DNA of 64,000 bases. It comes from an uncultured Acidobacteriota bacterium (GTDB taxonomy: Bacteria; Acidobacteriota; UBA6911; RPQK01; JAPXNP01). How positions within the stretch are numbered: position 1 is the stretch's first letter; every line of letters begins with the position of its first letter. The position numbers and the translations under genes are program-made. The notes beneath the pieces were generated by a model, which was not told the origin of the DNA, searched no databases, and saw nothing but the letters and a program-made list of their open reading frames with translations. Where the stretch lies: contig CAVZRV010000029.1 in assembly GCA_963777605.1 (NCBI GenBank), positions 192,001 to 256,000 on the forward strand, given 5' to 3'. This document shows positions 17,205 to 40,320 of the stretch, piece after piece.

Positions 17205-18716
17205 TTGATGAGCTTCAAGATCCTGGTGAAGAAGTGGATTCCGGGTGCCGTCCTGATCGTCGTCGCCCTTTTCTGTTGTGTTCACCTGGCGCCCCGGTTT
17301 CTCCTTTCTTCTCCGGGCCGTTCGTCTTTTGATGAAGCGTTCACCGGGCAGACGCTCCGGGTAGACTTCTATCACTCGGGGACCTCGACCGAGGAGCACA
17401 TCAGTCTGGACACGGTTCGCCTCGAAGGACCTTGGCCGGGGAGCCGGAGCAGACTTCTTGATCAGACTAACCGTGGCAAGTACTTCTTCGAGATTCGGTC
17501 GGCGGCATCGGATGTGCCGCTCTACTCAAGGGGTTTTGCAGGGATTTTCGGAGAGTGGGAGACGATCGGAGAGGCCCGGCAAGGGACTTGGCGGACTTTC
17601 CAGGAGTCGGTCCGCTTTCCCGAGCCCCGTTTGCCCTTCCACCTGGTGCTGCGCAAGCGGGCCGCCTCCGGGAGTTTTGAGCCCATCTTTTCGGTCAACA
17701 TCGATCCGAAGAACCGATTTGTCGATCGGTCACCAATCACCGCTTTCGGCACTCCCTGGACTCTGTTCGAAAATGGGGAACCGACCTCCAAGGTGGACCT
17801 GCTCATCCTCGGGGACGGATACACGGCTGAGGAGTCCGGAAAGTTCCACGAAGACGTCAAGCGGTTGGCCGATAACCTGTTCGCGACCGAGCCTTTCCTG
17901 TCGAGGAAGGAAGATTTCAATGTTCGGGCTATTGACGTTGCGTCTCCTGATCCGGGGATCAGCAACCCCCGGGCAGGGGAGTGGCACAACTCGGTCCTTG
18001 GATTGGAGTTCAATTCCTTCGACCTGGACCGTTATGTACTGACCTATCGGAATCGCGTGATCCGGGAGATCGCCGCCCAGTTGCCCTATGATGCCCTGCT
18101 GATTGTCTTCAACTCTCCGAAGTACGGAGGTGGGGGGATCTTCGGCCTCTGGTCAACCTGTTCCTCCGATTCCGAGTGGTCAACGTATGTCTTTGTGCAC
18201 GAATTTGGGCACTCGTTCGGCGGATTGGGGGATGAGTACTACTCCTCCGATGTCGCGTACGAAGATTTCACCCCGCCCGGGGTAGAACCCTGGGAGCCCA
18301 ACATCACCGCTCTACTCGATCCGGCAGCCTTGAAGTGGAAGGAACTGGTCAGTCCGGGAACGCCGATCCCGACTCCGTGGAACAAGGCGGCATACGACTT
18401 GGCTTCCGGCGCCAACCGGGAACGGAGAGCCGTAATGGTCCGCGACCACGCCTCGGCGGCTGATCTCAGCAGCTTTGACAAAGAGTCCGGAGAAGAACTC
18501 GAAAAGATCCTCAGATCCGATCCCTACTTCGGTCGGGTGGGGGCCTTCCAGGGCGCCGGATACGAATCGCTCGAGCTTTACCGCCCGAGCGTCGATTGCA
18601 TCATGTTCACCAAGTACCCCAAAGCCTTCTGTCCGGTCTGCCGGAAGGCGATCGAAGAGATGATCGATCTCTATTCCCGGACCACTAGCGGTACGCAAAC
18701 AGCATCGCGTAGATGA
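17205..18716 (+). CDS. Peptidase M64 (IgA peptidase) family metalloprotease
   Basis: DLLILGDGYT, HEFGH zinc motif, GLGDEY, CIM..FCPVC. Confidence 0.9.
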   Translation: MMSFKILVKKWIPGAVLIVVALFCCVHLAPRFLLSSPGRSSFDEAFTGQTLRVDFYHSGTSTEEHISLDTVRLEGPWPGSRSRLLDQTNRGKYFFEIRSAASDVPLYSRGFAGIFGEWETIGEARQGTWRTFQESVRFPEPRLPFHLVLRKRAASGSFEPIFSVNIDPKNRFVDRSPITAFGTPWTLFENGEPTSKVDLLILGDGYTAEESGKFHEDVKRLADNLFATEPFLSRKEDFNVRAIDVASPDPGISNPRAGEWHNSVLGLEFNSFDLDRYVLTYRNRVIREIAAQLPYDALLIVFNSPKYGGGGIFGLWSTCSSDSEWSTYVFVHEFGHSFGGLGDEYYSSDVAYEDFTPPGVEPWEPNITALLDPAALKWKELVSPGTPIPTPWNKAAYDLASGANRERRAVMVRDHASAADLSSFDKESGEELEKILRSDPYFGRVGAFQGAGYESLELYRPSVDCIMFTKYPKAFCPVCRKAIEEMIDLYSRTTSGTQTASRR

Positions 18717-21498
18717 TCAGCATGACTGTGAGCAGGCCGATGGTCAGCGCGGTGAAGCCGAAGATTCGAGCGGCCCGCTGCAGCCACTTGGGAGGCGGCG
18801 CAACCATTCGGTCCTTGATCTCGCGACTCTGAATAACCTGGGCGTACTCCTTCGGGCGATCATACTTCAACTCCTCCAAAGGAACCGAACCGGTGAAGAT
18901 GACCGGATCCATCGGGAACTTGTCCGGACGGAAGTGAGTGTTAAAGAAATGGATCGTGAAGATGAACCCCGTGGCCAGCAGGGCCTCGTCCGAGTGAATG
19001 ATCGTGGACACATTGATCAGCCACCCGGGGACTCCGAGGTTCGTAAAGAACTCTGAGAACCAGAGCAGCAACCCGCTTGCGCCGATCACCGCAATGCCCC
19101 AGAAGACCGCGAAGTAGTCGAACTTTTCCCAGTAGGTCCAGCGTCCGTACTGTGGCCGCGGGCCGATGCCTACGAACCACTTGAGGGTGGCGATGAACTC
19201 CGTGAGGTCGTTGAGCCGGAACATCATCGTGTTCTCGCCGGACAACATTTTCAGGAGGGAGCGCTTTTCACGTCGTTTCTTCTTGATCAGGTGTCCGATG
19301 TGCAACCCGAAATAGAGGAACGTGATGATCGCTGCGACCCGGTGGGCGAAACCGCTGACGGCGGGTCCCCCGATCATGTGCGAGAGGAATTGAAAGACCG
19401 GAACATCGGCGAACTTGATCGTCATTCCGGTGACCGCAAGGGTCAGGAAGCTGATGATGACCAGGACGTGAAGGAATCGTGTGAAGGGATCAAACCGCTC
19501 GTAGAAGCGGTTTTTCAACGACGCCACGGCCACTTCAGCTGCTGCGGCGTGGTCTTTCTTGTCCCGCAGAGCCCGGGGAAGCCAGAGCAACGTGTGTACG
19601 CCCGAGAACGTGAAAACACCCACCAGAAGGATCGTCATGAACCAGAACGTGTAATACAGGTATGGGTACCGGTCCCGGTTGTGATGGGTCGCATGGGTCA
19701 GATACCCCACGAACTTGTGGTTTGAGTTGGGGTGGCACTGACGACAGGTCTCGACCACGTTGATCCTGCTCAATGTTGAGCGGGGATCCGACGGAGGCAG
19801 GATGTTGTGCGATCCGTGACAGTCGTAGCACTTGGCTGTGTTGGCAGCTCCCAGCTTCGAAACCTTGCCGTGGAAGGTGTTGAAGTAGGACTCTGTGACT
19901 TCTTCGTGACATCGCCCGCACTGGCTGATGATCTCCTGCCGGAAATCGCCCAGGTCAACTCGATCGATGGTGTGCGACTTGTGGCAGTTACTGCAGACGG
20001 GAAGTGGCTTGTCGGTGGAGTTGACCGTCTTGCTGTGGATGCTGTTCTTGAACTCTTCGTACACGCCGAGGTGGCAGTTGCTGCAGGTCTCGGCGATTCG
20101 ACTGGGGTTGACGGTCGATTCAGGGTCGGACGCAGGCAACTCGCCGTGAGTCGTGTGGCAGTCAATGCAGGTTGCGGTCACCAGCAACCCGCTCGCGAGC
20201 AACCCCTTGCCGTGGATGCTCATCCGGTAATTCTGGACGATGTGAGTCTGCGTCCCGGTGTATCGGACGGATGCCTTTCCGCCGTCGGCATGGCACTGGC
20301 CACAAAGCATCGGGATGTTCTTCGCAAAAGTCGGAGAGGCCGTGTTGTCGTGCTTCATCTCCTTGTGCGGCGTGTGGCAGTCAGCGCAGTAGGGGGCGTC
20401 CGTTTCACCCTCGTCGTGGAGCTTGCCGTGGATGCTCGACTGGTAGGCGACCACCTGACCCGCGTGGCAGATAGAGCAGTCAACTTTCCCGCTGTCCTTG
20501 CAGACCGGCTCGTTTCGCGGGCTGACGTTGGTGTGGCAGCGGATACAGGTATTTACCGCGTGAACCGAGTGCCGAATATCGTCCTCGTTGACATACAGCG
20601 ACTCGGTCTTTCCGTTGACCGTCCGGCTAAGGGTCGGATTCTCGTGGCACCCCATACACATGGAGTCAGGGTAGCTCTCGGCGTAGAAGACCCGTCGCAC
20701 CTTGTGGGGCTGATGGCACTCGACGCAGCTGGGAATTTCGTGGGGCCGTTTCTCCCAGAGTTCACCCTTGATCACCTTGAGATGGACATCCTCGATCTGG
20801 GCATGGCACTGCATGCAGGTGGATGCGATCTTGTTCCGGCTGATCGTGGATTCCGGGTTCTCATGGGGAAGAATCAGGTGTGAGCTGTGGCAACTGGTGC
20901 AGACGGCTGTGACGATCAGTCCCCGCTTGAAAAGGCCGTCTCCGTGAATGGATTGGGAATACTGTTCGAGCGCCTGTGGTTCGGCAACGCTCCGCAACTG
21001 GGAAACCGGGGTGCCTTCCTTGTGGCAATTCCCGCAAAGGTTGGGGATGTTGCGTACGTAGGTGCGGGAGGCCGGGTTGGCCGATCGCAGAATGTCGTGC
21101 TTTCCGTGACAGTTGATGCAGGTCGGAGCCAGGTAGCGACCTTCTGCATGAGCCTGTCCGTGAAGGCTCTGGTTGTACTGGTCAACGGTGTCCGTGTGAC
21201 ACATGGAGCAGTCGACTGGGGCGAGCGGTTCGTCACGTGAGGAGTGATCCGGGTCGGCATCCATGTGACAGGCGACGCAACCCAGGTCCCCGTGAACCGA
21301 CGTTGTGAAGGACTTCCCGTTCACGAACAGGGAGATTTCCTTGCCGTTGCGTTCCGCCACGAAGTCGCGTTCGCCGTGGCACATCAGGCATTCTTCGTCG
21401 TCTTGTGCCAGGCCAACGCCCGCGGTCAGGAGAAAGATAATCAGGAAAAGGAATTTGAGAAAGCGCATGGGGACACGTGGCGCGGCCGCACTACTCAT
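18685..21498 (-). CDS. 19-heme cytochrome c fused to a C-terminal FdnI/HydC-type cytochrome b (extended CbcL-like quinol oxidoreductase)
   Basis: 19 CXXCH motifs counted after a signal peptide; TM domain with FLH, AHR, IIHSDE, IHFFNTH and RWTYWEKFDYFAVFWG; start 21498 or 21468. Confidence 0.9.
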   Translation of the reverse strand: MSSAAAPRVPMRFLKFLFLIIFLLTAGVGLAQDDEECLMCHGERDFVAERNGKEISLFVNGKSFTTSVHGDLGCVACHMDADPDHSSRDEPLAPVDCSMCHTDTVDQYNQSLHGQAHAEGRYLAPTCINCHGKHDILRSANPASRTYVRNIPNLCGNCHKEGTPVSQLRSVAEPQALEQYSQSIHGDGLFKRGLIVTAVCTSCHSSHLILPHENPESTISRNKIASTCMQCHAQIEDVHLKVIKGELWEKRPHEIPSCVECHQPHKVRRVFYAESYPDSMCMGCHENPTLSRTVNGKTESLYVNEDDIRHSVHAVNTCIRCHTNVSPRNEPVCKDSGKVDCSICHAGQVVAYQSSIHGKLHDEGETDAPYCADCHTPHKEMKHDNTASPTFAKNIPMLCGQCHADGGKASVRYTGTQTHIVQNYRMSIHGKGLLASGLLVTATCIDCHTTHGELPASDPESTVNPSRIAETCSNCHLGVYEEFKNSIHSKTVNSTDKPLPVCSNCHKSHTIDRVDLGDFRQEIISQCGRCHEEVTESYFNTFHGKVSKLGAANTAKCYDCHGSHNILPPSDPRSTLSRINVVETCRQCHPNSNHKFVGYLTHATHHNRDRYPYLYYTFWFMTILLVGVFTFSGVHTLLWLPRALRDKKDHAAAAEVAVASLKNRFYERFDPFTRFLHVLVIISFLTLAVTGMTIKFADVPVFQFLSHMIGGPAVSGFAHRVAAIITFLYFGLHIGHLIKKKRREKRSLLKMLSGENTMMFRLNDLTEFIATLKWFVGIGPRPQYGRWTYWEKFDYFAVFWGIAVIGASGLLLWFSEFFTNLGVPGWLINVSTIIHSDEALLATGFIFTIHFFNTHFRPDKFPMDPVIFTGSVPLEELKYDRPKEYAQVIQSREIKDRMVAPPPKWLQRAARIFGFTALTIGLLTVMLIIYAMLFAYR

Positions 21499-22045
21499 CC
21501 GAAGGCTCCGTGGGGCTAACTTTTTTTGATGTATCTGTCCTAAGGCGGGCGACTGCTTCCGGGATCAGGCGGTCAGCGATCGGTAGAATCTTTTCATTCT
21601 CGGACCAGACGTGACGGCGGAAGTGCCAAACCAGTTCGTTCAGCTCCGACGAAAGCTTGTAGTATTCTGGCGCGTCGTCGCGGGGAGTTTCCATGAAATC
21701 TTTCAGCTTCCGGTGTAGGGACTTGACCAGGCTCTGACCCTGGGCATGCTCCCGGCTGATCTGCTCCAGAGAGTCGAGTGCAGCAGCGTCCAACTCGGGC
21801 TTCAGGTGTCGTTTCAGCATAGGGAGAAGTAACCGTTCCTCCTCTGTTTCATGCTGAACCTCCCACGAGTCCAGAAAGTCGAACAGCCGGTCGAGAACAG
21901 GCTGGTTCTGACTGAACGATTCGGCGGGATCCTTGGATTCCGACAATTCTCGGACCACCTCCTCGAGGGCGTCCATGTAAGCGAGGAGCTGATCGTGATG
22001 TCGAGAAAAACGCTCCTTGATTGCACCGGTCAACATCGGTCTCAT
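21491..22045 (-). CDS. Hemerythrin-like (HHE) domain protein
   Basis: H..., HETEE, EH, HVWSE pattern (H/HxxxE/H/HxxxE); overlaps the downstream cytochrome start. Confidence 0.75.
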   Translation of the reverse strand: MRPMLTGAIKERFSRHHDQLLAYMDALEEVVRELSESKDPAESFSQNQPVLDRLFDFLDSWEVQHETEEERLLLPMLKRHLKPELDAAALDSLEQISREHAQGQSLVKSLHRKLKDFMETPRDDAPEYYKLSSELNELVWHFRRHVWSENEKILPIADRLIPEAVARLRTDTSKKVSPTEPSDE

Positions 22046-22116: not shown

Positions 22117-22132
22117 AGCACGTTCCGTGCCG
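22117..22132 (-). promoter_or_regulatory. Putative sigma54 (-24/-12) promoter for the hemerythrin and 19-heme cytochrome genes
   Basis: Minus strand CGGCACGGAACGTGCT: GG-N10-GC with GGCACG. Confidence 0.65.
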
Positions 22133-22521: not shown

Positions 22522-23031
22522 TTACACCACCTCGAGTTCGGGGCGTTTCCGGGGCCCCCTTCTGTTGCGGAGAGCCTCTTTCTTCTCCGCTCGCGCTTTG
22601 GAGCCGCTGTAGTTTAACAGAGCCTCAAGAACAGTGAAGAGGCTGTTCATGATCTCTTTGTCCCCGGTGTGAATCAGGTAATCGCACAGGCGCAGGAGTT
22701 CGAGTTGCTGGGGAGTGTAGCCCTCCCACTTGGTGTCCGGCTTCCGTCCCCGCCCAACCAGCAGTTGATCGAGCACGCATCGCCCCGACGTGCTTACCGG
22801 GCAGCGGTCGCCCGACTCGAGGGCGGGCTCCTGTCCAAAGAATGCAGTCACGTTAACTGCAAGAGCCTTGGCGATCTTCGTCAGGGTTGGGATGGTCGGA
22901 GTGATCCGTCCATTTTCCAGCCGCGAGAGGTATGAAACCGCCAGTCCGGTGTCCTCGGAGATTTCACGCTGCGTCTTATTCGCCTCGAGGCGAAGCCGTA
23001 GAATTCTTTTCCCAACGCTCATTTGGTGCAT
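22522..23031 (-). CDS. XRE-family HTH regulator with Cys-containing C-terminal domain
   Basis: KTQREISEDTGLAVSYLSRLENG HTH; CPVSTSGRC...LC. Confidence 0.88.
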   Translation of the reverse strand: MHQMSVGKRILRLRLEANKTQREISEDTGLAVSYLSRLENGRITPTIPTLTKIAKALAVNVTAFFGQEPALESGDRCPVSTSGRCVLDQLLVGRGRKPDTKWEGYTPQQLELLRLCDYLIHTGDKEIMNSLFTVLEALLNYSGSKARAEKKEALRNRRGPRKRPELEVV

Positions 23032-23311: not shown

Positions 23312-24508
23312 GTGATGAAGCACGGCGCGATGAAGCATGGAAAAGGGATGCCCGGCGGAATGCCCTCCCTGTCTGCAGTTGATTTCCACAAGACTCCGTT
23401 TGTGGCGATTTGGGAGACCACCCGGTGTTGTGACTTGGCCTGCCGACACTGCCGGGCCGAGGCGATACCGGAGCCGTTGCCGGGAGAGCTGTCGACTGCC
23501 GAGGGCAAGCAGGTTCTCGACGACTTGGCGGAAATGGGCTCGCCGATCTGTGTGCTGTCCGGTGGCGATCCCGCCAAGCGGGCCGATCTTTGCGACCTGG
23601 TTCGGCACGGGACTTCACGGGGAATGCGCATGGCGACCATTCCGGCTGCGACGCCGCTTTTGACCCAGGAACTCGTCCATGGCCTCAAAGAAGCGGGCCT
23701 CGCCCAGATGGCACTGAGTCTTGATGGGCCATCCCCTGAAATTCACGATACCTTCCGTGGCATTCCGGGGGCCTTCGATCGCACGCTTCGGGGTGCGTCG
23801 TTTGCGCGCAAAGCCGACCTGCCGCTTCAGATCAACACCACCTTCAGCAGCTACAACATGGACCATTTTGAGAGGATGACGGAAGTCGTCGGCGAAATCG
23901 GAGCGGTCTTCTGGGAGGTGTTTTTCCTCGTTCCGATGGGGCGGGGAAGAGATCTGGGCCAGATGAACGGAGAAGAGTTCGAGCGGCTCTTTGAAAAGCT
24001 GGCTTCCTATTCACACAAGGTCGATTTCATCGTCAAGATCACCGAGGCACCCCACTACCGGCGTTACCTGGTGCAGGATCACCTCCGCCACGGCGATGGC
24101 CCGAAGCGACTCTTTGACGAAGGCGCTCCCTTGCCGACTGAGAAAAGTGCGCTGCCTTGGCACATGAGACGTGATTTCGGCCCCGGAGGCAGCATCGGGT
24201 TGGCTCCCAAGGGTGTCAATGCCGGGAACGGCCATCTGTTTGTCAGCTACTGTGGGGACATTTACCCCAGCGGTTTCCTGCCCTTGCGGTGCGGTAACAT
24301 CAGGGAAACTTCGCTGCGGGAAGTCTATCGAACCCATCCGGTTTTCCAGGAACTTCGCGATCAGGAAAAGCTCAAGGGGAAATGTCTCGTCTGCGGTTTC
24401 CGCCACCTGTGCGGAGGATCGCGTGCACGGGCATATGCGATGACGGGCGACTACCTCGCCGAGGAACCGTTCTGCGCCTACGAACCGCCGGTCGCTCCGG
24501 AGGCATAG
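23312..24508 (+). CDS. Radical SAM/SPASM protein, AhbD/NirJ-like (possible coproheme decarboxylase)
   Basis: WETTRCCDLACRHC (CxxxCxxC) and SPASM KGKCLVC.F..LCGGSRARAYA..GDYL.EEPFC; next to hemY. Confidence 0.8.
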   Translation: MMKHGAMKHGKGMPGGMPSLSAVDFHKTPFVAIWETTRCCDLACRHCRAEAIPEPLPGELSTAEGKQVLDDLAEMGSPICVLSGGDPAKRADLCDLVRHGTSRGMRMATIPAATPLLTQELVHGLKEAGLAQMALSLDGPSPEIHDTFRGIPGAFDRTLRGASFARKADLPLQINTTFSSYNMDHFERMTEVVGEIGAVFWEVFFLVPMGRGRDLGQMNGEEFERLFEKLASYSHKVDFIVKITEAPHYRRYLVQDHLRHGDGPKRLFDEGAPLPTEKSALPWHMRRDFGPGGSIGLAPKGVNAGNGHLFVSYCGDIYPSGFLPLRCGNIRETSLREVYRTHPVFQELRDQEKLKGKCLVCGFRHLCGGSRARAYAMTGDYLAEEPFCAYEPPVAPEA

Positions 24509-26167: not shown

Positions 26168-26386
26168 GGCGCATTCTATCGAATCAGTTGAGGGCGAAAG
26201 AAATGCCTTGCGGTTTTGGCTGAAACCAGATTACTCTGACGGCAGTTTTCCAGTCGGTCGAAATTTGGATTTGTTCCGGGGCGACTGTTCTGGAAGGTCG
26301 GTTCTTGATTTGAGTTCGTGGTTTCAACGTTGGTTTTCCCCTGGGGAGGGGAGTACGGTGCTGTGTCTCTAAGGAGGGGTGTGTTA

Positions 26387-28781: not shown

Positions 28782-28897
28782 TTCGTTTTTTTCAGGTTGA
28801 AAAATCGAACTGCCTGTGGGATTGTTTAAGTGTTCTTTTTTCCGTTCCCCTGGGGAGGGGAGCCTATTACTGTGTCTTTTGAAGGAGGGGAGTGTTA

Positions 28898-30977: not shown

Positions 30978-31015
30978 AGCCAGAGGGGGACGGAAAGTCC
31001 CCCTCTGGCTTTTTT
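30978..31015 (+). terminator. Intrinsic terminator between mtrC2 and mtrA
   Basis: AGCCAGAGGGGGAC-GGAAA-GTCCCCCTCTGGCT, a perfect 14-bp stem followed by a T run. Confidence 0.85.
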
Positions 31016-31887: not shown

Positions 31888-33882
31888 ATGAACAGCAGAT
31901 TCACATCCCTATATGTTTTGATTCTTTTACTGGCCGGGGGATTGCTGACCATGAACTCGGTGGCTCAAGATGATTCGTCGAAGGACGAACTCCGGCTCAA
32001 CCTGGATTTTGGATACCGATGGAGAATGGGCTTCAGGGGCAGTGAAGACCTCTATCGCAGTCAGATTGATCTCGGTGAGGGCCCGAAGCTGTTTTCGGGC
32101 GACCTTTTCTTCGCGCCTGCGGCGGGCTCCAACCGTCTTCTCGACCGACTCGAACTGAACTTGGGTAGTTGGGGGGGAGAGCCCTACAATACGGCGCGCT
32201 TCAGAATGGCCAAGAACGGCCTCTACGACCTGAACTTCAATTACCAGAACGTTTCGTTTTTCAACTCAATCCCGACCTTTGCCAATCCTCTGATTGAAAA
32301 GGGCAGTCTCGTCTCGCAGCACCGCGAAGACAGTTCACTTCGGACTGCCAGCGTGGAGTTGCGCCTGTTCCCGGGGGCGCGGTGGACCCCGATTTTCGCG
32401 TACCAGCGGACCAGTCGTTTTGGGAACGTCAACACGACCTTTTCGGGTGACTGGGACGAGTTCCAGTTGAATAAGGATTTGGACTTTTCGTCGGACGATC
32501 TGCGGTTGGGAGTGCTCTACCATCGGAGCAATTTCTCGGCTCAGATCGAGCAGGGCGGGCGCTGGTATCGCGACTTGTCTACCTTCTCGTCTCCAGGCTT
32601 TCAGGAGGGGAATTCGACGCGGCCGTTTATTGGCCGGGACATTTATCTGGACAGCTATGGGGCCCGGCAGGACGTCAAGTCCCGCATTATCCCGTACTCG
32701 ACGGTGCGCTTGACCTATACACCCGTCAACAACATTTTGCTCCAGGGGCGGGCTTCCTATTCTCAGGCCGACTTCCGGTCGCGCTTCTATGAAGACCTCT
32801 CCGGGAATTTTTTCTCGTACCCGGCTCTGAAAGCCTCCTACACGGGGAGCGAGCAAGATGTGTCCGGCCGATTCAAGTCTCCCAATCTCTTCATCGACCT
32901 GTCGGGGCAGTGGTCCCTGGTCTCGAGAGTGCGGATCATCGAGCGGTATCAGGCACGGCGGTCGCACCTCTCAGGCTCTCGCTCACTCGATCTGACGCTC
33001 TACAACGTGGATCCGGCGCTGAGTATTCGCACTTATGATCAACTGGACCTCCAGAGTGTATGGCAGTCCCTGTATGCGCAGGACTATGACCGTCAGCAAC
33101 TGGAAGGGATCGTTGCCGCTACTCCTGAACTGGACCTGCGCGTGGGGCACCGCTATGAGAAACGCTCCATGGATCTGGGGTTATCCGGCGTGGATGAGAT
33201 CAGCCCGACGTCACCGCTGTTCGGGCGGCGCAGTTACGACGCCTCCCGGAACGTTTTAATCGTTGGAGGCGCATACCGGTTCTCGTCGCGGAATCGGTTG
33301 TCGGTCGATTACGAGCACGGCACTACGGACCAGCCTATCTTTCGGACCAGCGTCACCGATTTCGACCGGCTGAAGGTCAAGGGACGAGTCTCGCCGACGG
33401 AAGCTCTCGAATTCAGCGGGATGGTGTCTCTGTTCGACAACAAGGAAGACGTCATCGATTACAACTCCGAGAACCGGTCCTACAACCTGCAGTTCAACTA
33501 CCGCCCTTTCAGCAGGGTAGGTTTCTCGGGACAGTGGGAACGTACCGACTGGAACACCCGGATTCCGTACCTCGCCCCGCAGTCCCTGACGTGGGACCTC
33601 TTCCGGTTCGAGGAGAAGGCCAACTACGGCAACATGTTGGTCGATCTGACCCTGGTACGGAACTCGCGTCTCAGCCTCGGTTACTCGGTCTGGGGGAACA
33701 CCGGGACGTTCCCGGTGAATTTCCACCAGCCGACGGCCCGGCTCGACGTACCCCTGGGCGAGCGCCTGGTTGCTTACGGGCAGTGGAACTATTACGACTA
33801 CAACGAAAAGGTAGACTTCTATCCCCAGGACTACCGCACGCATCTGGCAGTCTTCGGGTTCCGGGTCAACATAGACCGGTGA
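31888..33882 (+). CDS. mtrB: MtrB/PioB-like outer-membrane beta-barrel
   Basis: Signal peptide, aromatic-rich amphipathic strands, 10 bp after mtrA; assignment rests largely on gene order. Confidence 0.75.
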   Translation: MNSRFTSLYVLILLLAGGLLTMNSVAQDDSSKDELRLNLDFGYRWRMGFRGSEDLYRSQIDLGEGPKLFSGDLFFAPAAGSNRLLDRLELNLGSWGGEPYNTARFRMAKNGLYDLNFNYQNVSFFNSIPTFANPLIEKGSLVSQHREDSSLRTASVELRLFPGARWTPIFAYQRTSRFGNVNTTFSGDWDEFQLNKDLDFSSDDLRLGVLYHRSNFSAQIEQGGRWYRDLSTFSSPGFQEGNSTRPFIGRDIYLDSYGARQDVKSRIIPYSTVRLTYTPVNNILLQGRASYSQADFRSRFYEDLSGNFFSYPALKASYTGSEQDVSGRFKSPNLFIDLSGQWSLVSRVRIIERYQARRSHLSGSRSLDLTLYNVDPALSIRTYDQLDLQSVWQSLYAQDYDRQQLEGIVAATPELDLRVGHRYEKRSMDLGLSGVDEISPTSPLFGRRSYDASRNVLIVGGAYRFSSRNRLSVDYEHGTTDQPIFRTSVTDFDRLKVKGRVSPTEALEFSGMVSLFDNKEDVIDYNSENRSYNLQFNYRPFSRVGFSGQWERTDWNTRIPYLAPQSLTWDLFRFEEKANYGNMLVDLTLVRNSRLSLGYSVWGNTGTFPVNFHQPTARLDVPLGERLVAYGQWNYYDYNEKVDFYPQDYRTHLAVFGFRVNIDR

Positions 33883-34183: not shown

Positions 34184-34768
34184 TCAGATTTTCTTGAGGA
34201 TTGCCACGGCCTCGATTTCGATGAGGAGGTCCTCTCGGCAGAGCCTGGCCTGGATCCCCACGCTGGCCGGAAGGGGGTCGAGGCAATGCCACTGGTAGAA
34301 AACGTTCCGCACCCGGTTGAACTCGTCGTAATCACGCTCGATGTCGCGCAGGTAGCAGGTCGTCTTGATCACGTCCTTCCACGTTGCACCTTCGCTTTCG
34401 AGGAGGGTGGTGATATTTCTGTATGTTCGCCAGCACTGGGCCCGGAAGTCCCCCTTGTAGACGGTCTCTCCGCCTCCATCGATGCTGGCAGTGCCGGAGA
34501 TCAGGAGGAGCGTGTATTTCCCGAGTTCGAGGCGCAACCCGCGGGAAAAGGCCGACCCGTAGTCACAGGCTTCGTTCAGAACGGAGTGCGCCGAGATCCC
34601 CTGCCTTTCCACCGATGAATAACCCGGCGGGTGAGGCGTCGGTTCGAGGGCTCGGGGTGTGCCGAGTGTCGACAACATGCCGAGAGCGATCAATTCATCG
34701 CGCTCTTCTTCGGAAACGTTTTCCAGGTCGAGTAGGTCTTTCACGGGATCGGCAACATTCTCAGTCAT
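34184..34768 (-). CDS. Rid (YjgF/RidA) family hydrolase
   Basis: SAFSRG, LISGTASID, LCREDLLIEIEAVA; GGAGG RBS before ATG 34768. Confidence 0.85.
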   Translation of the reverse strand: MTENVADPVKDLLDLENVSEEERDELIALGMLSTLGTPRALEPTPHPPGYSSVERQGISAHSVLNEACDYGSAFSRGLRLELGKYTLLLISGTASIDGGGETVYKGDFRAQCWRTYRNITTLLESEGATWKDVIKTTCYLRDIERDYDEFNRVRNVFYQWHCLDPLPASVGIQARLCREDLLIEIEAVAILKKI

Positions 34769-35145
34769 TGGATCGAAACTCCTCCACACAAACAGCAAAC
34801 AGGAGCAACTCTTCACGGGCAGGGAATTGCCGGAATCAGGGGCTTGTGCCCACAATTCCGAAACCCGTTCAACGCAGCGGCCCCAACTTCAGGCCCTATT
34901 CTAACTCAAACGGCGAGCTCAACTCGCCAACCGGAGGGACCTCCCGGTCAGCGTGACCCACTGATCGTCCCTCAGCCTGGGCTCGAAAGCGGCCTCAGTT
35001 ATTGAGTATCCCCCACCCAAATTGAATCCAGACCCTCCGAATTATCCAGGCCATCCAAGCGTGACAGGCGGGGAGAGGGGCAACGAGTGCCCCTCTCCGA
35101 CAAGGGAGGGTGAATAAATCTATGTGATTTGCTGTAGATATTGCA

Positions 35146-35706: not shown

Positions 35707-36207
35707 GTGAGTGACCAGATGGCAAGAGCCGGAAAGGCTCGAACGATTACCGCAATCCCGCTGGTCGCTCCATTCTCGGAGCCGCAGCCGGGGATGTTGA
35801 AAATCGGCGAAGCGGCTCGAAGACTGGGGATTTCGGTCCAGGCGATTCGCCTTTATGAGGCCGAAGGACTGTTGATCTCGTTCCGCTCTGAAAAGGGTAC
35901 CCGTTGGTACAGCGAGGCAGACCTTAACTGGATTGCGCAAATCAAGCGAATGGCGCAGGAGGGATTGAACTTCGAAGGCATCCGGCGCCTACTTGCTCAA
36001 ATCCCCTGCTGGGCTCTCAAACCCTGCCGCCCCGAGGCTCATGCCAACTGTGCTATGCGGTACGAGGCCCGAATGCCGTGCTGGATCGCGCCTGAGAAGC
36101 TCTGCACCGAACAGCTCAAAGAGTGCTACCACTGCAATGCCTATCGGCGCGCTTCCGACTTCGTCAATCTCAAGGTCAGCACCAACCTGATTGTCCTCGA
36201 AACCTGA
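35707..36207 (+). CDS. MerR-family regulator with a 7-Cys (two CW motifs) C-terminal domain
   Basis: LKIGEAARRLGISVQAIRLYEAEGL..GTRWYS; CW..C..C..CW..C..CxxC. Confidence 0.9.
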   Translation: MSDQMARAGKARTITAIPLVAPFSEPQPGMLKIGEAARRLGISVQAIRLYEAEGLLISFRSEKGTRWYSEADLNWIAQIKRMAQEGLNFEGIRRLLAQIPCWALKPCRPEAHANCAMRYEARMPCWIAPEKLCTEQLKECYHCNAYRRASDFVNLKVSTNLIVLET

Positions 36208-36251: not shown

Positions 36252-36318
36252 TGCTGTTCAGCAAAAGTAGCTGTTTGAGACGTCTCCAATTAGTCTGACT
36301 TCGGCAGTGGAAAGTGGA

Positions 36319-38259
36319 ATGAGATTGATAAAGAGCGGAACTTGTCTGCGGTTATTGTTTACCTGTTCAGTGTTGTTTCTGTTGCCTTTGCAGGTTCTAA
36401 TGGCGCAGGAGGCCGAAACCTGCCTGGAGTGTCACGGGGACCAGGGATTGACCGAGGATCCGGATACAGCTCGCCTGTTCGTTGATGGTGCCGTATTTGA
36501 GAACTCGGTCCACGGGACTTTCACCTGTGTTGACTGCCACCAGGATCTTGCTGGCGCTGACCCTTATGGGCATGCTTCAGACCTGGCCCCAGTCGATTGT
36601 TCCATGTGCCACGACGATATCGTCTCTGAGTACCACGAAAGCCTGCACTACTATGCCCGTCAACGGGGAAACGACCGGGCACCCGAATGTACGGGCTGTC
36701 ACGGGACGCACAACATCCTGCCCAAGAGTGACCCTACATCTCCGAGTCACCGCGGAAACATCGTGGAGATGTGCGCTTCCTGCCACAGCGGTCGCGACCT
36801 CTTAGCCGACCAGTTGGTCCGCCTGCCCGAGGCTGCACGTGGCTACGCAAGTTCGGTCCATGGGCAGGCCCAAAGGCGCGGGATCGACACCGCGGCGGTC
36901 TGCAGCGACTGTCACGGAGCCCACCTTCTGAAGGGTGTGCTCGATCCCCAGTCGAAGATCAACCCGGTGAATGTTAGTAAGACGTGCGGGCAGTGCCACA
37001 ATGACATTCGCGATCAGTACGACAAGTCAATCCACGGCCGCGCGCTGGCTGCCGGGATTTCGGAGAGCCCGACCTGCAATACCTGTCACGGTGAGCACCA
37101 GATTGAGTCACCCAAAGATCCGAATGCCGCAACTTCGGCGGCGCGTCAGGCTATGGAGACCTGTGCCTCATGTCACGAGAATCCTCGCATGAATGCCAAG
37201 TTCGGGCTCGCGGGGAATGTGGTGTCGAGTTATGAGGACAGCTACCACGGTTGGGCAAAGCGGTGGGATTCTCCGACTGCCGCGACCTGCGTTCGTTGCC
37301 ACACTGCTCACTGGGTACTTCCGGAGCGAGATCCAGCTTCTACGATAAGCCCGAAGAACGTCACAGAGACGTGCCGGCAGTGCCATCCCGACGCGGACCT
37401 GGCATTTTCGATCAGCTACACCCACAAGACGGCAGCACCGTCGGCCAACCCCGTGACCCAGTGGCTGGAATGGGCGTACATGATCATCATCCCCGCAGTT
37501 ATCGGGGGCATGATCATTCACAACCTGATCATCTGGATCTTCTACCTCATCCGCCGTCGTCGAAACGAACTGAGCGGCGAGCAGATCAGCCGAATGGACA
37601 AGAGCCAGGTGCTCCAGCACCTGGTTCTTGCGGTCAGCTTCACCGTTCTGGTGCTGACCGGGTTTGCCTTGCGCTACCCGGATGCTTTCTGGGTCATTCC
37701 GCTGAAAGCCATGGGCCTTGATGAGACCCTGCGTTCGATCGTTCACCGGGTGGCTGGAGTCGCGCTGATCGGTGTAAGTGTCTACCATGTGGCCTACGTG
37801 GTTGCCAGCCGAAGAGGGCGTCGCGACCTGATCGGGATGGCCCCGCGCCTGCGCGATCTGACCGACTTCATCGCCAACATGGGCTACTACCTTGGATGGC
37901 GGTCGCGCCGGGTCGAATTCGACCAGTATGACTACACGCAAAAGGCGGAATACTGGGCGCTGGTTTGGGGGACCCTGGTCATGGCCCTGAGCGGCCTCGT
38001 GCTCTGGTTCCCGGAAATTGCGGTCAACTACTTCCCGACCTGGATTGTCCAGGCGTCCCAGTTGCTGCACTTCTATGAAGCGTGGCTGGCCATGCTGGCC
38101 ATCATCGTGTGGCACTTCTTCTTCGTCATCGCCCACCCGGAGGTCTATCCCATGAGTTGGACCTGGATCACCGGGAAGATGAACAAGGAAGAGGCCCTGC
38201 ATCACCATGGCGAGTGGGTAGAGCGACTGGAGAAGGAAGAAACCGAAAAACTGATCTGA
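36319..38259 (+). CDS. 11-heme cytochrome c fused to cytochrome b (CbcL-like)
   Basis: 11 CXXCH, then a TM domain with LQH, VHRVAG, YH, YTQKAEYWALVWG, LHFYEA, WHFF; start 36307 or 36319. Confidence 0.9.
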   Translation: MRLIKSGTCLRLLFTCSVLFLLPLQVLMAQEAETCLECHGDQGLTEDPDTARLFVDGAVFENSVHGTFTCVDCHQDLAGADPYGHASDLAPVDCSMCHDDIVSEYHESLHYYARQRGNDRAPECTGCHGTHNILPKSDPTSPSHRGNIVEMCASCHSGRDLLADQLVRLPEAARGYASSVHGQAQRRGIDTAAVCSDCHGAHLLKGVLDPQSKINPVNVSKTCGQCHNDIRDQYDKSIHGRALAAGISESPTCNTCHGEHQIESPKDPNAATSAARQAMETCASCHENPRMNAKFGLAGNVVSSYEDSYHGWAKRWDSPTAATCVRCHTAHWVLPERDPASTISPKNVTETCRQCHPDADLAFSISYTHKTAAPSANPVTQWLEWAYMIIIPAVIGGMIIHNLIIWIFYLIRRRRNELSGEQISRMDKSQVLQHLVLAVSFTVLVLTGFALRYPDAFWVIPLKAMGLDETLRSIVHRVAGVALIGVSVYHVAYVVASRRGRRDLIGMAPRLRDLTDFIANMGYYLGWRSRRVEFDQYDYTQKAEYWALVWGTLVMALSGLVLWFPEIAVNYFPTWIVQASQLLHFYEAWLAMLAIIVWHFFFVIAHPEVYPMSWTWITGKMNKEEALHHHGEWVERLEKEETEKLI

Positions 38260-38823: not shown

Positions 38824-38880
38824 CCTGAGACTGGGCCACTGCTTCCGTCTTGGAGACAAGCGCGGACGCTTGTCTCCCCG

Positions 38881-40320
38881 CTACTGCTCCAGCCCAAGTT
38901 CCGAGAGGATCTCCGGGTTCTCCTCTTCCGTGGCCAGAATCGTGTGGCAGCTTTCGCAGTCCTGCTCGATGCTTCTGCCGTCGGAACTGGCGTGGCTCCC
39001 GTCATGACAGCGCATGCAGCCGCCTTCGAAGTTCATGCCGTTGTGATTCAGGTTGACTGGGTGGTAGCCCCAGCCCAGCTGCATGTCCGGAAAGACGTTA
39101 CGGGCGTATATCTGTTCGGCGGCCTCAGCAGCCTGATCGACCTTCTCCTGGTTGGAAGAGTAGTAATCTGCCTGATTGGCCTTGTAATAGTCGATCAGCT
39201 TCGTTTTGACCGCTGTGCTCGACTCCAGGTTGTCACCCACCTCCATGAGTACTTCTTCGGCGGTCTCGCGAATGAACGGAATAGATCTGTCGATTCGGCC
39301 CTCGGCCATGGCGTTATCGACCGCATCACCGGGGAGCTTGAATACGTGGGTAGGACGGTTGTGGCAGTCAATGCAGTCCATCTTGCGAATCTTGCTCCGA
39401 TCCATTGTGGACGCGTCGAAGCCCTCGGCCACGAACTCGGTCTCCTTGTCCCCTTCCCGGATCTGAACCCAGGGGATCACCTGGCGACGCTCATCGGAAG
39501 CGTAGTAATAGGTTTCATGTTTCTTATTGACGTGCCAGCTGTGGATGCCCTGCGCCCGGTCTCCACCTCCGATGTGCATCACAAGGATGCTCTTGAGGGG
39601 GGTGTTCGCCTCGTCGGTCTCGAACCGGTCGATGACGCGGACGCGGTCTCCCGAGAATTTTGCCGGCCAGTGGCAGTTTTCGCAGATGTCCTGGGACGGG
39701 CGAAGGTTCTCAACCGGGGAAGGAATCGGGCGTTCGTAAGTATTGAACGTTACGGCGAAGACCTGTCCCATACCCGACAGCTTCGCACGCACGAACCAAG
39801 GTGCCCCGGGGCCGATGTGGCATTCGACGCAAGCGACCCGAGAGTGGGGCGAGCCCTGGTAGGCCACATATTCGGGCTGCATCACAGTGTGGCAAACCTG
39901 GCCACAAAACTGGGTGGAGTCCATGTAGTGGACACCCTCGTAACTGACAACCCCGACAATCAGCACATTGATGACGGTCAAAAGACCGATCCCCACGGCA
40001 AGGCGTCGTGTCCTCGAACTTCTGAAATCGACAACCGGATAGTAGCCTTCCTCAGCTCGACGCTCTCCCGCCGCGACAGCCGTCTCGTGGCGGCGGTGGA
40101 CCCAGATCCCCACCGGGATCAGCAGGAGTCCTCCCACGAAGATACCGGGTAGGACAAGTAGCGCCATCAAAGCGATGTACGGTGAATTGGCCAACCCGAT
40201 CAGTCCCAGGAGGAGAAAGAGAACCATGGCAACAGCACTGACCGTCGTGATGCTTGCCCCGAACAGGGTGATCCAGTTAGTTCCGAAGAGCCGTAGTAGG
40301 GGCGCCCCAATTTGCCGCAT
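38881..40320 (-). CDS. NapC/NirT-family membrane multiheme cytochrome c, ImcH-like
   Basis: Three N-terminal TM helices; FCGQVCHTVM, SPHSRVACVECHIGPGA, CENCHWP, CIDCHNRPTH, CMRCH, CESCH (6 heme sites). Confidence 0.85.
   Translation of the reverse strand: MRQIGAPLLRLFGTNWITLFGASITTVSAVAMVLFLLLGLIGLANSPYIALMALLVLPGIFVGGLLLIPVGIWVHRRHETAVAAGERRAEEGYYPVVDFRSSRTRRLAVGIGLLTVINVLIVGVVSYEGVHYMDSTQFCGQVCHTVMQPEYVAYQGSPHSRVACVECHIGPGAPWFVRAKLSGMGQVFAVTFNTYERPIPSPVENLRPSQDICENCHWPAKFSGDRVRVIDRFETDEANTPLKSILVMHIGGGDRAQGIHSWHVNKKHETYYYASDERRQVIPWVQIREGDKETEFVAEGFDASTMDRSKIRKMDCIDCHNRPTHVFKLPGDAVDNAMAEGRIDRSIPFIRETAEEVLMEVGDNLESSTAVKTKLIDYYKANQADYYSSNQEKVDQAAEAAEQIYARNVFPDMQLGWGYHPVNLNHNGMNFEGGCMRCHDGSHASSDGRSIEQDCESCHTILATEEENPEILSELGLEQ

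What the first reader, a model, noticed from the sequence alone, without database searches (positions are those of the whole stretch)
18685..40320. Hybrid extracellular electron transfer locus: Shewanella-type MtrC-MtrC-MtrA-MtrB with Geobacter-type CbcL x2 and ImcH-like quinol oxidases
Seen: six multiheme proteins with 19+10+10+10+11+6 = 66 heme-c motifs, a porin, heme-synthesis genes and three candidate redox sensors within ~22 kb. Known: Shewanella feeds MtrCAB from the tetraheme CymA, while Geobacter sulfurreducens uses ImcH for higher-potential and CbcL for lower-potential acceptors with different outer conduits. Inference: this organism couples a potential-switched, multi-entry inner-membrane stage to an Mtr conduit that has two interchangeable terminal decahemes. 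MtrCAB outside Shewanella is already known. The complete co-located combination with two CbcL sizes is the candidate novel system.
Basis: partly seen in the sequence, partly recalled or inferred. Interest (0 to 1): 0.9.

Follow-up and report, generated by a model that had tools for sequence, protein, structure and literature searches.

The report
Acidobacterial Mtr electron conduit gene cluster
This soil-type bacterium keeps, in one conserved 22-kb stretch, the genes for an outer-membrane "wire" that carries electrons out of the cell together with three inner-membrane cytochromes that probably feed it, a known kind of system in a grouping not yet described.

Summary
Window 18685-40320 encodes six multihaem cytochromes with 19+10+10+10+11+6 = 66 haem motifs, an MtrB-fold porin, two haem-synthesis genes and three small regulator or sensor genes.

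By HMM, motif and fold the parts are MtrC x2, MtrA, MtrB, two CbcL/MtrH/MtoC-family bc cytochromes and one ImcH-family cytochrome. The genome is an Acidobacteriota MAG.

- **Conservation:** the whole cluster is syntenic in the nearest species, which has a single mtrC. An ImcH-type gene lies within 10 kb of mtrC in 11 of 30 MtrC-bearing genomes, out of 401 Acidobacteriota sampled. It abuts a CbcL-type gene in 43 of 80 loci.
- **What is already known:** CbcL-family genes inside mtr/mto clusters (mtrH, mtoC), and organisms that combine ImcH, CbcL and Mtr, are published.
- **What the surveys I read did not report:** imcH next to mtrAB, any inner-membrane quinol oxidoreductase beside acidobacterial mtrCAB, and an mtrC duplication there.
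- **Not tested:** potential-dependent switching, and direct homology to the Geobacter proteins.

Verdict: real, and a new variant of a known kind. Another agent of this scan noted a similar acidobacterial cluster without MtrC on other DNA.

The parts
18685..21498 (-). Cbc19: CbcL/MtrH/MtoC-family bc cytochrome. It has a signal peptide, 19 CXXCH and a C-terminal FdnI/HydC-like cytochrome b membrane domain.
   Evidence: 19 CXXCH. PF01292, 31.9 bits (cut-off 30.1), residues 619-754; 5 hydrophobic helices in the C-terminal domain (620-935); internal tandem duplication of a 244-aa, 8-haem module (38% identity, score 442 against shuffles 39 +/- 6).
21491..22045 (-). Hemerythrin-domain protein. It overlaps the start of Cbc19 by 8 nt, so the two are probably co-transcribed.
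   Evidence: PF01814, 43.4 bits; the orthologue (55%) sits in the same position in the nearest species.
22117..22132 (-). Sigma-54-type -24/-12 promoter-like site upstream of hemerythrin-Cbc19 (a lead only).
   Evidence: A site of the same type lies at the same relative position in the nearest species. Window-wide, the pattern is not above chance (23 found, 22.5 expected).
22522..23031 (-). XRE-family HTH regulator.
   Evidence: PF01381, 53.8 bits. 90% identical in the nearest species.
23312..24508 (+). Radical SAM/SPASM protein of family TIGR04053, closest to the AhbD haem b synthase.
   Evidence: TIGR04053, 444 bits (cut-off 395); AhbD model 343 bits (below its cut-off of 500). Homologues lie near imcH in 7 of 80 loci.
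24767..26167 (-). HemY-family protoporphyrinogen/coproporphyrinogen oxidase.
   Evidence: PF01593, 149 bits; TIGR00562, 236 bits (cut-off 98).
26381..28420 (+). MtrC1: OmcA/MtrC-family decahaem cytochrome and the extra paralogue. The ORF is open from 26318; the likely start is 26381.
   Evidence: TIGR03507, 432 bits; the repeat shared with mtrC2 begins at 26362; its C-terminal half is diverged.
28892..30937 (+). MtrC2: OmcA/MtrC-family decahaem cytochrome and the conserved orthologue next to mtrA.
   Evidence: TIGR03507, 474 bits. MtrF 3pmq E 1e-30; its C-terminal half is 68% identical to the single MtrC of the nearest species, against 57% for MtrC1.
30978..31010 (+). Strong GC-rich hairpin followed by a T-run, between mtrC2 and mtrA (terminator or attenuator).
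   Evidence: 14-bp stem with 10 GC pairs; a hairpin plus T-run of different sequence occupies the same position in the nearest species.
31039..31878 (+). MtrA: periplasmic/porin-inserted decahaem cytochrome.
   Evidence: TIGR03508, 221 bits (cut-off 192); chain A of the Mtr complex, 6r2q_A, E 1.6e-34.
31888..33882 (+). MtrB: outer-membrane beta-barrel sheath.
   Evidence: PF11854, 23.7 bits (cut-off 23). AF2 pLDDT 82.4; best fold match 6r2q_B, TM 0.65.
34184..34855 (-). RidA/YjgF-family protein. It is conserved in the cluster; its role is unknown.
   Evidence: PF01042, 62.6 bits; 60% orthologue in the same position.
35707..36207 (+). MerR-family regulator with a Cys-rich C-terminal tail, directly upstream of Cbc11.
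   Evidence: PF13411, 60.5 bits; 71% orthologue in the same position.
36307..38259 (+). Cbc11: CbcL/MtrH/MtoC-family bc cytochrome with 11 CXXCH and a di-haem b membrane domain.
   Evidence: PF01292, 58.4 bits. FdnI 1kqf_C E 6e-8, with His438/480/588/603 aligned to FdnI His18/57/155/169; 5 TM helices.
38881..40320 (-). ImcH-family inner-membrane cytochrome: 3 TM helices, CX3CH at residue 139 and 5 CXXCH.
   Evidence: three long N-terminal helices; all six haem motifs are invariant in 22 homologues. PF03264: 34.5 bits (cut-off 24.1).

Best explanation
This is a vertically inherited extracellular-electron-transfer (EET) gene cluster of an Acidobacteriota bacterium.

**Shown**
- mtrA and mtrB encode a decahaem wire inside a large beta-barrel.
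- Two mtrC paralogues encode surface decahaems.
- Three genes encode inner-membrane multihaem cytochromes with quinol-dehydrogenase-type membrane modules. Two have FdnI-like di-haem b domains fused to 11 or 19 c-haems (CbcL/MtrH/MtoC family). One has a NapC/NrfH-like module with 3 TM helices (ImcH family).
- Haem-synthesis genes and regulator genes lie between them.

**Inferred**
- Menaquinol is oxidised at the inner membrane by ImcH and/or the Cbc proteins.
- Electrons run through their periplasmic haem chains, possibly helped by soluble cytochromes encoded elsewhere, to MtrA in MtrB.
- They then pass to MtrC on the surface and on to Fe(III)/Mn(IV) minerals, humics or partner cells.
- The two MtrC share a nearly identical N-terminal half (domains I-II) and differ in domains III-IV. 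I therefore infer that both dock on the same MtrAB but present different outer surfaces.

That the three inner-membrane entries divide the work by acceptor redox potential, as ImcH and CbcL do in Geobacter, is plausible but only an analogy. I put it at about 0.25.
For: - **Family assignments above curated cut-offs**.
- **PDB matches:** MtrF/OmcA/MtrC and MtrA.
- **MtrB fold**.
- **Haem b ligands:** the four FdnI haem-ligand histidines align in Cbc11.
- **ImcH signature:** 3 TM + CX3CH + 5 CX2CH, invariant in 22 homologues.
- **Synteny:** all 16 query genes, from the M64 peptidase to Usp, lie in the same order in the nearest species, one copy each, at 55-90% amino-acid identity.
- **Phylum sample:** in 401 Acidobacteriota genomes, 30 carry a full-length MtrC (E <= 1e-100). 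In 11 of these 30, from 5 families, an ImcH gene lies within 10 kb on the same contig.
- **80 ImcH loci:** 43 carry a CbcL-type cytochrome b gene, nearly always abutting imcH. 7 carry both the Cbc19 and the Cbc11 type. 7 carry mtrC+A+B within 10 kb, and 6 of those 7 also carry the cytochrome b gene.
- **Locus L034:** the order is mtrC-mtrA-mtrB, multihaem c, cytochrome b, imcH, all on one strand.
- **Literature:** CbcL-family genes in mtr/mto clusters are taken as EET quinol oxidases/quinone reductases (PMC6295460).
Against: - The cluster is not one operon: there are at least five transcription units on both strands.
- imcH is convergent with Cbc11.
- A strong terminator-like hairpin separates mtrC2 from mtrA.
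- No small periplasmic carrier cytochrome is encoded in the locus.
- Most ImcH/CbcL-type pairs occur without MtrCAB nearby: 37 of the 43 loci with a cytochrome b gene. These modules are therefore not specific to Mtr.
- In 12 of the 30 MtrC-bearing genomes imcH lies on another contig, and in 4 no imcH was found with this query.
- No direct comparison with Geobacter CbcL or ImcH was possible.
- No expression data exist.
- MtrC has no lipobox cysteine in its N-terminus, unlike Shewanella MtrC (recalled).
- The MtrB Pfam score is marginal.
Confidence: 0.7

Rival explanations
1. The ImcH-type and CbcL-type cytochromes are general quinol:periplasm electron-output modules that serve several periplasmic or outer conduits. 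On this view their position beside mtrCAB reflects a 'cytochrome island' and not a dedicated pathway.
For: - 37 of the 43 ImcH loci with a CbcL-type cytochrome b gene have no MtrCAB within 10 kb.
- ImcH occurs in 187 of 401 Acidobacteriota genomes, but full-length MtrC in only 30.
- The genome has about 35 multihaem ORFs, a second MtrA/MtrB-like pair on contig C48 and a second ImcH paralogue on C5.
- The transcription units are separate.
Against: - Co-location recurs in 5 families.
- In four loci (L033, L034, L054, L078) the genes follow mtrB on the same strand.
- The full 22-kb order is preserved in the nearest species.
Confidence: 0.15
2. The cluster works inwards. It takes electrons from Fe(II), cathodes or partner cells and reduces the quinone pool, as proposed for the MtoAB-MtoC systems of iron oxidisers.
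For: - CbcL/MtrH/MtoC homologues occur in both Fe(II) oxidisers and Fe(III) reducers, and Mtr conduits are reversible (PMC6295460).
- A hemerythrin-domain gene, a possible O2/NO sensor, is coupled to Cbc19.
Against: - Two surface MtrC genes are present.
- ImcH homologues have so far been linked only to Fe(III) reducers (PMC6295460).
- No mtoD-like or cyc2-like gene was seen in the window.
Confidence: 0.1
3. The three inner-membrane cytochromes form a potential-graded switch. ImcH would serve high-potential acceptors, Cbc11 and Cbc19 lower ones, all feeding one Mtr conduit.
For: - In Geobacter, CbcL acts at or below -0.10 V and ImcH only above it (abstract of PMC5322298 as listed).
- The trio of ImcH + Cbc19-type + Cbc11-type recurs in 7 of 80 loci, so the two sizes are old paralogues kept side by side.
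Against: - There are no potential, expression or mutant data for any acidobacterial homologue.
- Cbc11 and Cbc19 are only about 30% identical to each other.
- Their relation to Geobacter CbcL was not measured.
Confidence: 0.25

Closest known systems
MtrCAB clusters of Acidobacteriia ('Group 5' of Baker et al. 2022, mBio, PMC8805035; passages read; supplements not seen)
   Same: Same phylum. mtrC, mtrA and mtrB are adjacent, and the MtrC/MtrA/MtrB families are the same.
   Different: - Group 5 was described as having no inner-membrane quinone oxidoreductase near mtrCAB, no mtrC duplication, and a periplasmic tetrahaem gene right after mtrB.
- Here there are two CbcL-type genes and one ImcH-type gene within 8 kb, a tandem mtrC pair, and a RidA gene on the opposite strand after mtrB.
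Rhodoferax ferrireducens mtr cluster with mtrH, and the mtoAB-mtoC clusters of Dechloromonas and Gallionella (Zhong & Shi 2018, PMC6295460; sections 3, 8, 10-12 read; supplementary tables not seen)
   Same: A CbcL-family bc cytochrome is encoded in the same cluster as the MtrAB-type conduit and is taken as its inner-membrane partner.
   Different: - Those clusters also carry cymA (Rhodoferax) or mtoD, and no imcH. The paper states that no mtrAB/mtoAB was found adjacent to imcH.
- Here there is no CymA in the cluster, there is an imcH, and there are two CbcL-type paralogues (11 and 19 haems).
Geobacter sulfurreducens ImcH (GSU3259) and CbcL (GSU0274)
   Same: - ImcH architecture: 3 TM + CX3CH + CX2CH motifs with a NapC/NirT-like stretch.
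- CbcL architecture: an N-terminal multihaem c domain fused to a HydC/FdnI-like di-haem b domain.
   Different: - The haem counts differ: 6 against 7 for ImcH, and 11 and 19 against 9 for CbcL.
- The Geobacter genes feed Pcc/Ext conduits, not MtrCAB.
- Sequence identity to the Geobacter proteins was not measured here.
Shewanella MtrCAB/OmcA (solved structures 6r2q, 4lm8, 3pmq, 4lmh)
   Same: - Decahaem MtrA (E 1.6e-34 to 6r2q_A).
- MtrB fold (TM 0.65 to 6r2q_B).
- MtrC/MtrF/OmcA-family decahaems with an extra paralogue beside the core mtrC.
   Different: - There is no CymA, FccA or CctA in the cluster.
- No lipobox cysteine is seen in MtrC, and no N-terminal CXXC in MtrB. That both features exist in Shewanella is recalled, not tested here.
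- Sequence identity is low.
Desulfuromonas acetexigens (PMC12133095; passages read)
   Same: One organism is reported to express ImcH, CbcL and MtrCAB homologues on electrodes. Its ImcH and CbcL have consecutive accession numbers.
   Different: It is a Desulfobacterota. A CymA homologue is also named, and the accessions given for MtrC and for MtrA/MtrB are not consecutive with each other or with ImcH/CbcL.

Membership tests
OmcA/MtrC decahaem cytochromes (TIGR03507; Pfam PF22113) | Full-length match above the curated cut-off, with ten CXXCH in two pentahaem domains | tested here: met
   432 and 474 bits (cut-off 209); PF22113 150 and 152 bits; 5+5 CXXCH. MtrF E 1e-30, OmcA E 4e-19.
OmcA/MtrC decahaem cytochromes | Lipoprotein signal (lipobox Cys), as in Shewanella MtrC. 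This feature is recalled and comes from no call. | tested here: not met
   the N-termini have a hydrophobic segment but no cysteine before residue 200. The export or anchoring route may differ.
MtrA/DmsE decahaem cytochromes (TIGR03508) | Model above cut-off, ten CXXCH, about 300 aa, signal peptide | tested here: met
   221 bits (cut-off 192); 10 CXXCH in 279 aa; 6r2q_A E 1.6e-34.
MtrB/PioB porins (PF11854) | Sequence model above cut-off | tested here: inconclusive
   23.7 bits against a cut-off of 23, on one stretch only; 16.6 bits in the six-frame search; no PDB sequence match.
MtrB/PioB porins | Large beta-barrel of the MtrB fold, encoded directly after mtrA | tested here: met
   pLDDT 82.4; best match 6r2q_B at E 5e-16 and TM 0.65, with the next hits at TM about 0.4. 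The gene starts 10 nt after the mtrA stop.
CbcL/MtrH/MtoC (criteria of Zhong & Shi 2018) | N-terminal periplasmic domain with 3-23 CX2CH; total length 416-1034 aa | tested here: met
   11 motifs in 650 aa and 19 motifs in 937 aa.
CbcL/MtrH/MtoC | C-terminal HydC/FdnI-like cytochrome b domain with 4-6 TM helices and conserved haem-ligand histidines | tested here: met
   PF01292, 31.9 and 58.4 bits (cut-off 30.1). Cbc11 His438/480/588/603 align with FdnI His18/57/155/169 (ligand numbering recalled); 5 TM helices in each. For Cbc19 the equivalent histidines (677, 719, 835, 850) were read, not from an alignment to FdnI.
CbcL/MtrH/MtoC | Detectable sequence similarity to G. sulfurreducens CbcL, R. 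ferrireducens MtrH or MtoC (the family spans 28.6-100% identity) | not tested
   No reference sequence could be fetched. The one genome-contig scan returned only the 80 best loci, none from Geobacter.
ImcH (criteria of Zhong & Shi 2018 / Levar 2014 as cited there) | Three N-terminal TM helices followed by an atypical CX3CH motif | tested here: met
   TM helices at 26-44, 49-67 and 107-125; three long helices in the model. CGQVCH at 139; invariant in 22 of 22 sequences.
ImcH | 5-9 further CX2CH motifs and a NapC/NirT-like stretch around TM3 and the first haems | tested here: met
   5 CXXCH. PF03264, 34.5 bits (cut-off 24.1), residues 111-196. NrfH 2j7a_C E 0.003.
ImcH | Sequence similarity to GSU3259, and a role at high redox potential | not tested
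   No reference sequence was available. Function is not testable with these tools. The only lead is an ESM Atlas neighbour cluster whose commonest phylum is Thermodesulfobacteriota.
CymA (NapC/NirT tetrahaem quinol dehydrogenase) | One TM helix plus four CXXCH, about 190 aa, encoded in or near the mtr cluster | tested here: not met
   None is in the window. The only strong PF03264 match in the genome is on contig C11 (99.5 bits, in a 520-aa open frame), with 4 CXXCH in that frame.

The most novel reading that the evidence does not exclude
MtrCAB + ImcH + CbcL-type is an old acidobacterial EET 'supermodule'. In it the long CbcL paralogue, whose 19 c-haems come from duplication of an 8-haem unit, acts as a periplasm-spanning wire. 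It would hand electrons directly to MtrA, with no need for soluble periplasmic carriers. ImcH and the 11-haem paralogue would give alternative entries at other redox potentials. The two MtrC, with the same docking half and different outer halves, would tune the exit to different minerals.
Probability: 0.12. Interest if true: 0.75.

Novelty: new variant of a known kind. Interest (0 to 1): 0.45.

Why it matters
Acidobacteriota are among the most abundant soil and sediment bacteria, yet their route for respiring minerals is poorly known.

- The 2022 survey of Mtr clusters found no inner-membrane partner beside the acidobacterial mtrCAB.
- The 2018 survey of quinol oxidases found no imcH beside mtrAB.

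This locus and its relatives show that in several acidobacterial families ImcH-type and CbcL-type cytochromes sit next to MtrCAB. That names concrete candidates for the missing inner-membrane step. It also supports the view that EET pathways are assembled from exchangeable modules.

These genes are useful markers for iron reduction in metagenomes, and the gene set could be tested in Shewanella or E. coli hosts.

Tried and rejected
- **Geobacter reference sequences.** I aimed to place the proteins against Geobacter CbcL and ImcH, MtrH and MtoC. The PDB holds no CbcL or ImcH structure. The ESM Atlas gave only generic names. The phylogeny was therefore not done.
- **Expression.** No sequencing run was listed for window 30000-39999: no RNA holder listed.
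- **Sigma-54 promoters.** The -24/-12 pattern is not enriched in the window (23 matches against 22.5 expected). The site before hemerythrin-Cbc19 is positionally conserved in the nearest species; the one before Cbc11 is not. I keep both as leads only.
- **Sigma-70 and terminator scans.** Counts were not above the shuffles (2 promoter-like sites against 6.1 expected; 19 terminator-like sites against 17.3). Only the hairpin at 30978-31010 stands out.
- **ImcH model.** Mean pLDDT was 67, and below 50 over the haem region, so no fold search was run on it. I used only its three N-terminal helices.
- **MtrB sequence search.** The PDB search returned nothing, so the fold search replaced it.
- **Rfam.** The whole window gave only a tRNA at 63212-63297.
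- **Earlier notes.** None existed for this genome.
- **Papers.** PMC12977616 and PMC8446621 held nothing on this arrangement.
- **Formate dehydrogenase gamma subunit.** This label, given to homologues by some sources, was considered and rejected as a function. No catalytic Fdh subunit is nearby, and the b domain is fused to 11 or 19 c-haems.


Full report
**Observation.**
- Six ORFs carry 19, 10, 10, 10, 11 and 5 CXXCH motifs. The last also has one CX3CH, which gives 66 haem-binding motifs in all.
- The window lies on contig C29 of a 6.7-Mb, 53-contig genome.
- The closest named relatives of its proteins and loci are Acidobacteriota MAGs.
- GC content is even across the region, 57-60%, so composition gives no sign of recent import.

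**Outer-membrane part.**
- ORFs 26318-28420 and 28892-30937 match the OmcA/MtrC decahaem model TIGR03507 at 432 and 474 bits (cut-off 209). They match the MtrC/MtrF domain II/IV model PF22113 at about 150 bits. The best solved relatives are MtrF, OmcA and MtrC.
- ORF 31039-31878 matches the DmsE/MtrA model TIGR03508 (221 bits, cut-off 192) and chain A of the solved Mtr complex (6r2q_A, E 1.6e-34).
- ORF 31888-33882 only just reaches the MtrB_PioB cut-off (23.7 against 23 bits) and has no PDB sequence match. I therefore folded it with eight homologues taken from related loci.
- That model (mean pLDDT 82.4) has MtrB of the Mtr complex as its best fold match (6r2q_B, E 5e-16, TM 0.65). TonB-dependent receptors follow at TM about 0.4.
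- The region thus holds a real mtrC-mtrC-mtrA-mtrB set.

**Inner-membrane part: the two bc cytochromes.**
- The 650-aa protein (36307-38259, 'Cbc11') and the 937-aa protein (18685-21498, 'Cbc19') each have a signal peptide and a long multihaem c domain. Each also has a C-terminal cytochrome b domain of the FdnI/HydC type (PF01292, 58.4 and 31.9 bits, cut-off 30.1).
- In Cbc11, His438, 480, 588 and 603 align with His18, 57, 155 and 169 of E. coli FdnI. That these are the haem ligands of FdnI is recalled.
- Hydropathy gives five membrane helices in the b domain of each protein.
- Cbc19 equals the Cbc11 plan plus one extra copy of a 244-residue, 8-haem module. The two internal copies are 38% identical (score 442; shuffles 39 +/- 6).

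**Inner-membrane part: the ImcH-type protein.**
- The 479-aa protein (38881-40320) has three N-terminal membrane helices.
- It has a CX3CH motif right after the third helix, five CXXCH motifs, and a NapC/NirT-like stretch (PF03264, 34.5 bits; NrfH E 0.003).
- All six motifs are invariant in 22 homologues.

**Fit to the published families.** These features are exactly the published criteria of the CbcL/MtrH/MtoC family and of the ImcH family (Zhong & Shi 2018, PMC6295460; sections 3, 8, 10, 11 and 12 read).
- CbcL/MtrH/MtoC: 3-23 CX2CH, 416-1034 aa, four to six TM motifs (six in most members), conserved histidines.
- ImcH: three TM helices, CX3CH, 5-9 CX2CH.

I could not measure identity to the Geobacter proteins themselves, so the family assignment rests on architecture and motifs.

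**Accessory genes.** Between Cbc19 and mtrC lie four genes:
- a hemerythrin-domain gene that overlaps the Cbc19 start by 8 nt;
- an XRE-type regulator;
- a radical SAM/SPASM gene of family TIGR04053 (444 bits), whose next-best model is the AhbD haem b synthase;
- a HemY-family oxidase.

Between mtrB and Cbc11 lie a RidA-family gene and a MerR-family regulator with a Cys-rich tail. That these regulators sense redox state is unproven.

**Conservation.**
- In the nearest species representative (locus L009; handles G001 and G354 show identical coordinates), tblastn finds all 16 query genes, one copy each and in the same order. The order runs M64 peptidase, Cbc19, hemerythrin, XRE, radical SAM, HemY, MtrC, MtrA, MtrB, RidA, MerR, Cbc11, ImcH, aminotransferase, Usp.
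- Amino-acid identity is 55-90%, and there is only one mtrC.
- Among the 80 best ImcH loci from 80 species, 40 had full 10-kb flanks.
- 43 of the 80 carry a CbcL-type cytochrome b gene, nearly always abutting imcH.
- 7 carry both a Cbc19-type and a Cbc11-type gene.
- 7 carry mtrC+mtrA+mtrB within 10 kb, and 6 of those 7 also have the cytochrome b gene.
- In L034 the order is mtrC-mtrA-mtrB, multihaem c, cytochrome b, imcH on one strand. The c and b parts are separate, overlapping ORFs there.
- In an even sample of 401 Acidobacteriota genomes, 187 have an ImcH match (E <= 1e-40) and 30 have a full-length MtrC match (E <= 1e-100).
- Of those 30: in 11, from five families, the two genes lie on one contig 0.2-9 kb apart. 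In 12 they are on different contigs. In 4 no ImcH was found with this query. In 3 the ImcH position was not listed.
- The arrangement is therefore recurrent and inherited, not an accident of this genome. But the ImcH/CbcL pair is far more widespread than Mtr.

**What is known.**
- A CbcL homologue (mtrH) lies in the mtrABC cluster of Rhodoferax ferrireducens, and mtoC lies in mtoAB clusters. Zhong & Shi found such links in seven further species.
- The same paper states that no mtrAB/mtoAB was adjacent to imcH, and it lists only 2 CbcL-family and 19 ImcH homologues in Acidobacteria.
- Baker et al. 2022 (PMC8805035; passages only) describe five Acidobacteriia with mtrCAB ('Group 5'). These had no inner-membrane quinone oxidoreductase nearby, no mtrC duplication, and a tetrahaem gene after mtrB.
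- Desulfuromonas acetexigens is reported to express ImcH, CbcL, CymA and MtrCAB homologues (PMC12133095).
- A Holophaga MAG is reported to express homologues of Geobacter extEFG, of Shewanella mtrF and of the inner conduits of both (PMC11748539).
- My searches for the terms MtrCAB+CbcL+ImcH, Acidobacteri+ImcH+CbcL+MtrC and MtrCAB+horizontal+Acidobacteria+gene cluster returned no paper whose title or listed abstract start (all three calls) concerns this cluster. I opened six papers, three of them from these listings, and none describes it.
It reaches the same comparison with the 2018 survey.

**The two MtrC.**
- The paralogues are 78% identical overall but are mosaic.
- In codons 1-360 (domains I-II, haems 1-5) amino-acid identity is 90-98% and synonymous divergence about 0.1-0.5.
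- From codon 361 on (domains III-IV), identity falls to 48-75% per 60-codon block (90% only in the last 31 codons), and synonymous divergence is saturated, above 1.1.
- The C-terminal half of MtrC2, the copy next to mtrA, is closer to the single MtrC of relatives: 68% against 57% for the nearest species, and 62% against 51% for L015.
- So MtrC2 is the conserved orthologue. MtrC1 is an old or fast-evolving paralogue whose 5' half has been homogenised, most simply by gene conversion.
- In the solved Mtr complex the contact to MtrAB is made through the N-terminal half of MtrC (recalled). I therefore infer that both copies can dock on the one MtrAB and differ at the distal surface.
- A strong hairpin with a T-run lies between mtrC2 and mtrA (30978-31010). 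A hairpin plus T-run of different sequence sits at the same place in the nearest species. This suggests that mtrC is transcribed in excess over mtrAB.

**Mechanism and its limits.**
- The best-supported reading is an outward EET chain: menaquinol to ImcH and/or Cbc11/Cbc19, to MtrA in MtrB, to MtrC1/MtrC2, to extracellular acceptors.
- Shown: the identities of the parts and their conserved neighbourhood.
- Inferred: the links between the parts, the direction of flow, and any division of labour by redox potential.
- Against a dedicated pathway: the separate transcription units, the lack of a periplasmic carrier gene in the locus, and the many ImcH/CbcL pairs without Mtr.
- The genome also holds a second ImcH paralogue (C5, 38%) and an MtrA-like/MtrB-like pair on C48. 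It has one strong NapC/NirT match on C11 and about 35 ORFs with four or more CXXCH. Other routes therefore exist.

**Verdict.** The finding is real and well delimited. The parts are known families, and the idea of exchangeable inner-membrane modules for Mtr is established. The specific grouping was not in the surveys I could read: acidobacterial mtrCAB with an ImcH-type gene, two CbcL-type paralogues of 11 and 19 haems, and a mosaic mtrC pair. It recurs across several acidobacterial families. I rate it a new variant of a known kind, of moderate interest.

Noticed in passing
window 22375-22473 (-): A 32-codon ORF encodes a small hydrophobic peptide (MSISTDALIYIHVIGCLGLFVLGYYVGSRKKD). It lies between the XRE regulator and the hemerythrin gene. 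A similar ORF is visible at the same place in the nearest species (sequence printed).
   Followed up: partly
window 38260-38880: The convergent gap between Cbc11 and imcH holds two copies of a roughly 55-nt repeat. A 26-nt core of it occurs 12 times on 9 contigs of the genome. It is probably a small dispersed repeat element.
   Followed up: partly
window 36236-36251 (+) and 22117-22132 (-); 43227-46456 (-): Two similar sigma-54-type sites (GGCACG-N4-CGTGCT) precede Cbc11 and hemerythrin-Cbc19. An NtrC-type sigma-54 activator and an adjacent ORF (44939-46456, not scanned against any family library) lie 3 kb beyond imcH. Only the hemerythrin site is positionally conserved in the nearest species.
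   Followed up: partly
G000 contigs C5:544-2055, C48:328-2791, C11:192872-194431, C10:146253-154845: Outside the window the genome has a second ImcH paralogue (38%), a second MtrA-like plus MtrB-like pair and a true NapC/NirT-family gene. It also has a run of four ORFs with 24, 21, 17 and 7 CXXCH.
   Followed up: partly
L034:7201-9916 (also L033, L054, L078): In these loci the CbcL-type protein appears as two overlapping ORFs, a multihaem c part and a cytochrome b part, between mtrB and imcH. This is either a split form or an assembly frameshift.
   Followed up: partly
The genome search family f40, genus g55: 13 genomes of one acidobacterial family (12 of them in one genus) have proteins of about 880-990 aa that match only residues about 210-360 of MtrC (E about 1e-22). 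They may be a different OmcA-like surface cytochrome.
   Followed up: no
window 63212-63297 (+): A tRNA gene, the only Rfam match in the window.
   Followed up: no
L025, L062, L067, L069, L070, L072, L080: Homologues of the TIGR04053 radical SAM gene lie within a few kb of imcH in 7 of 80 loci. This hints at a recurrent link between this AhbD-like enzyme and the cytochrome genes.
   Followed up: no
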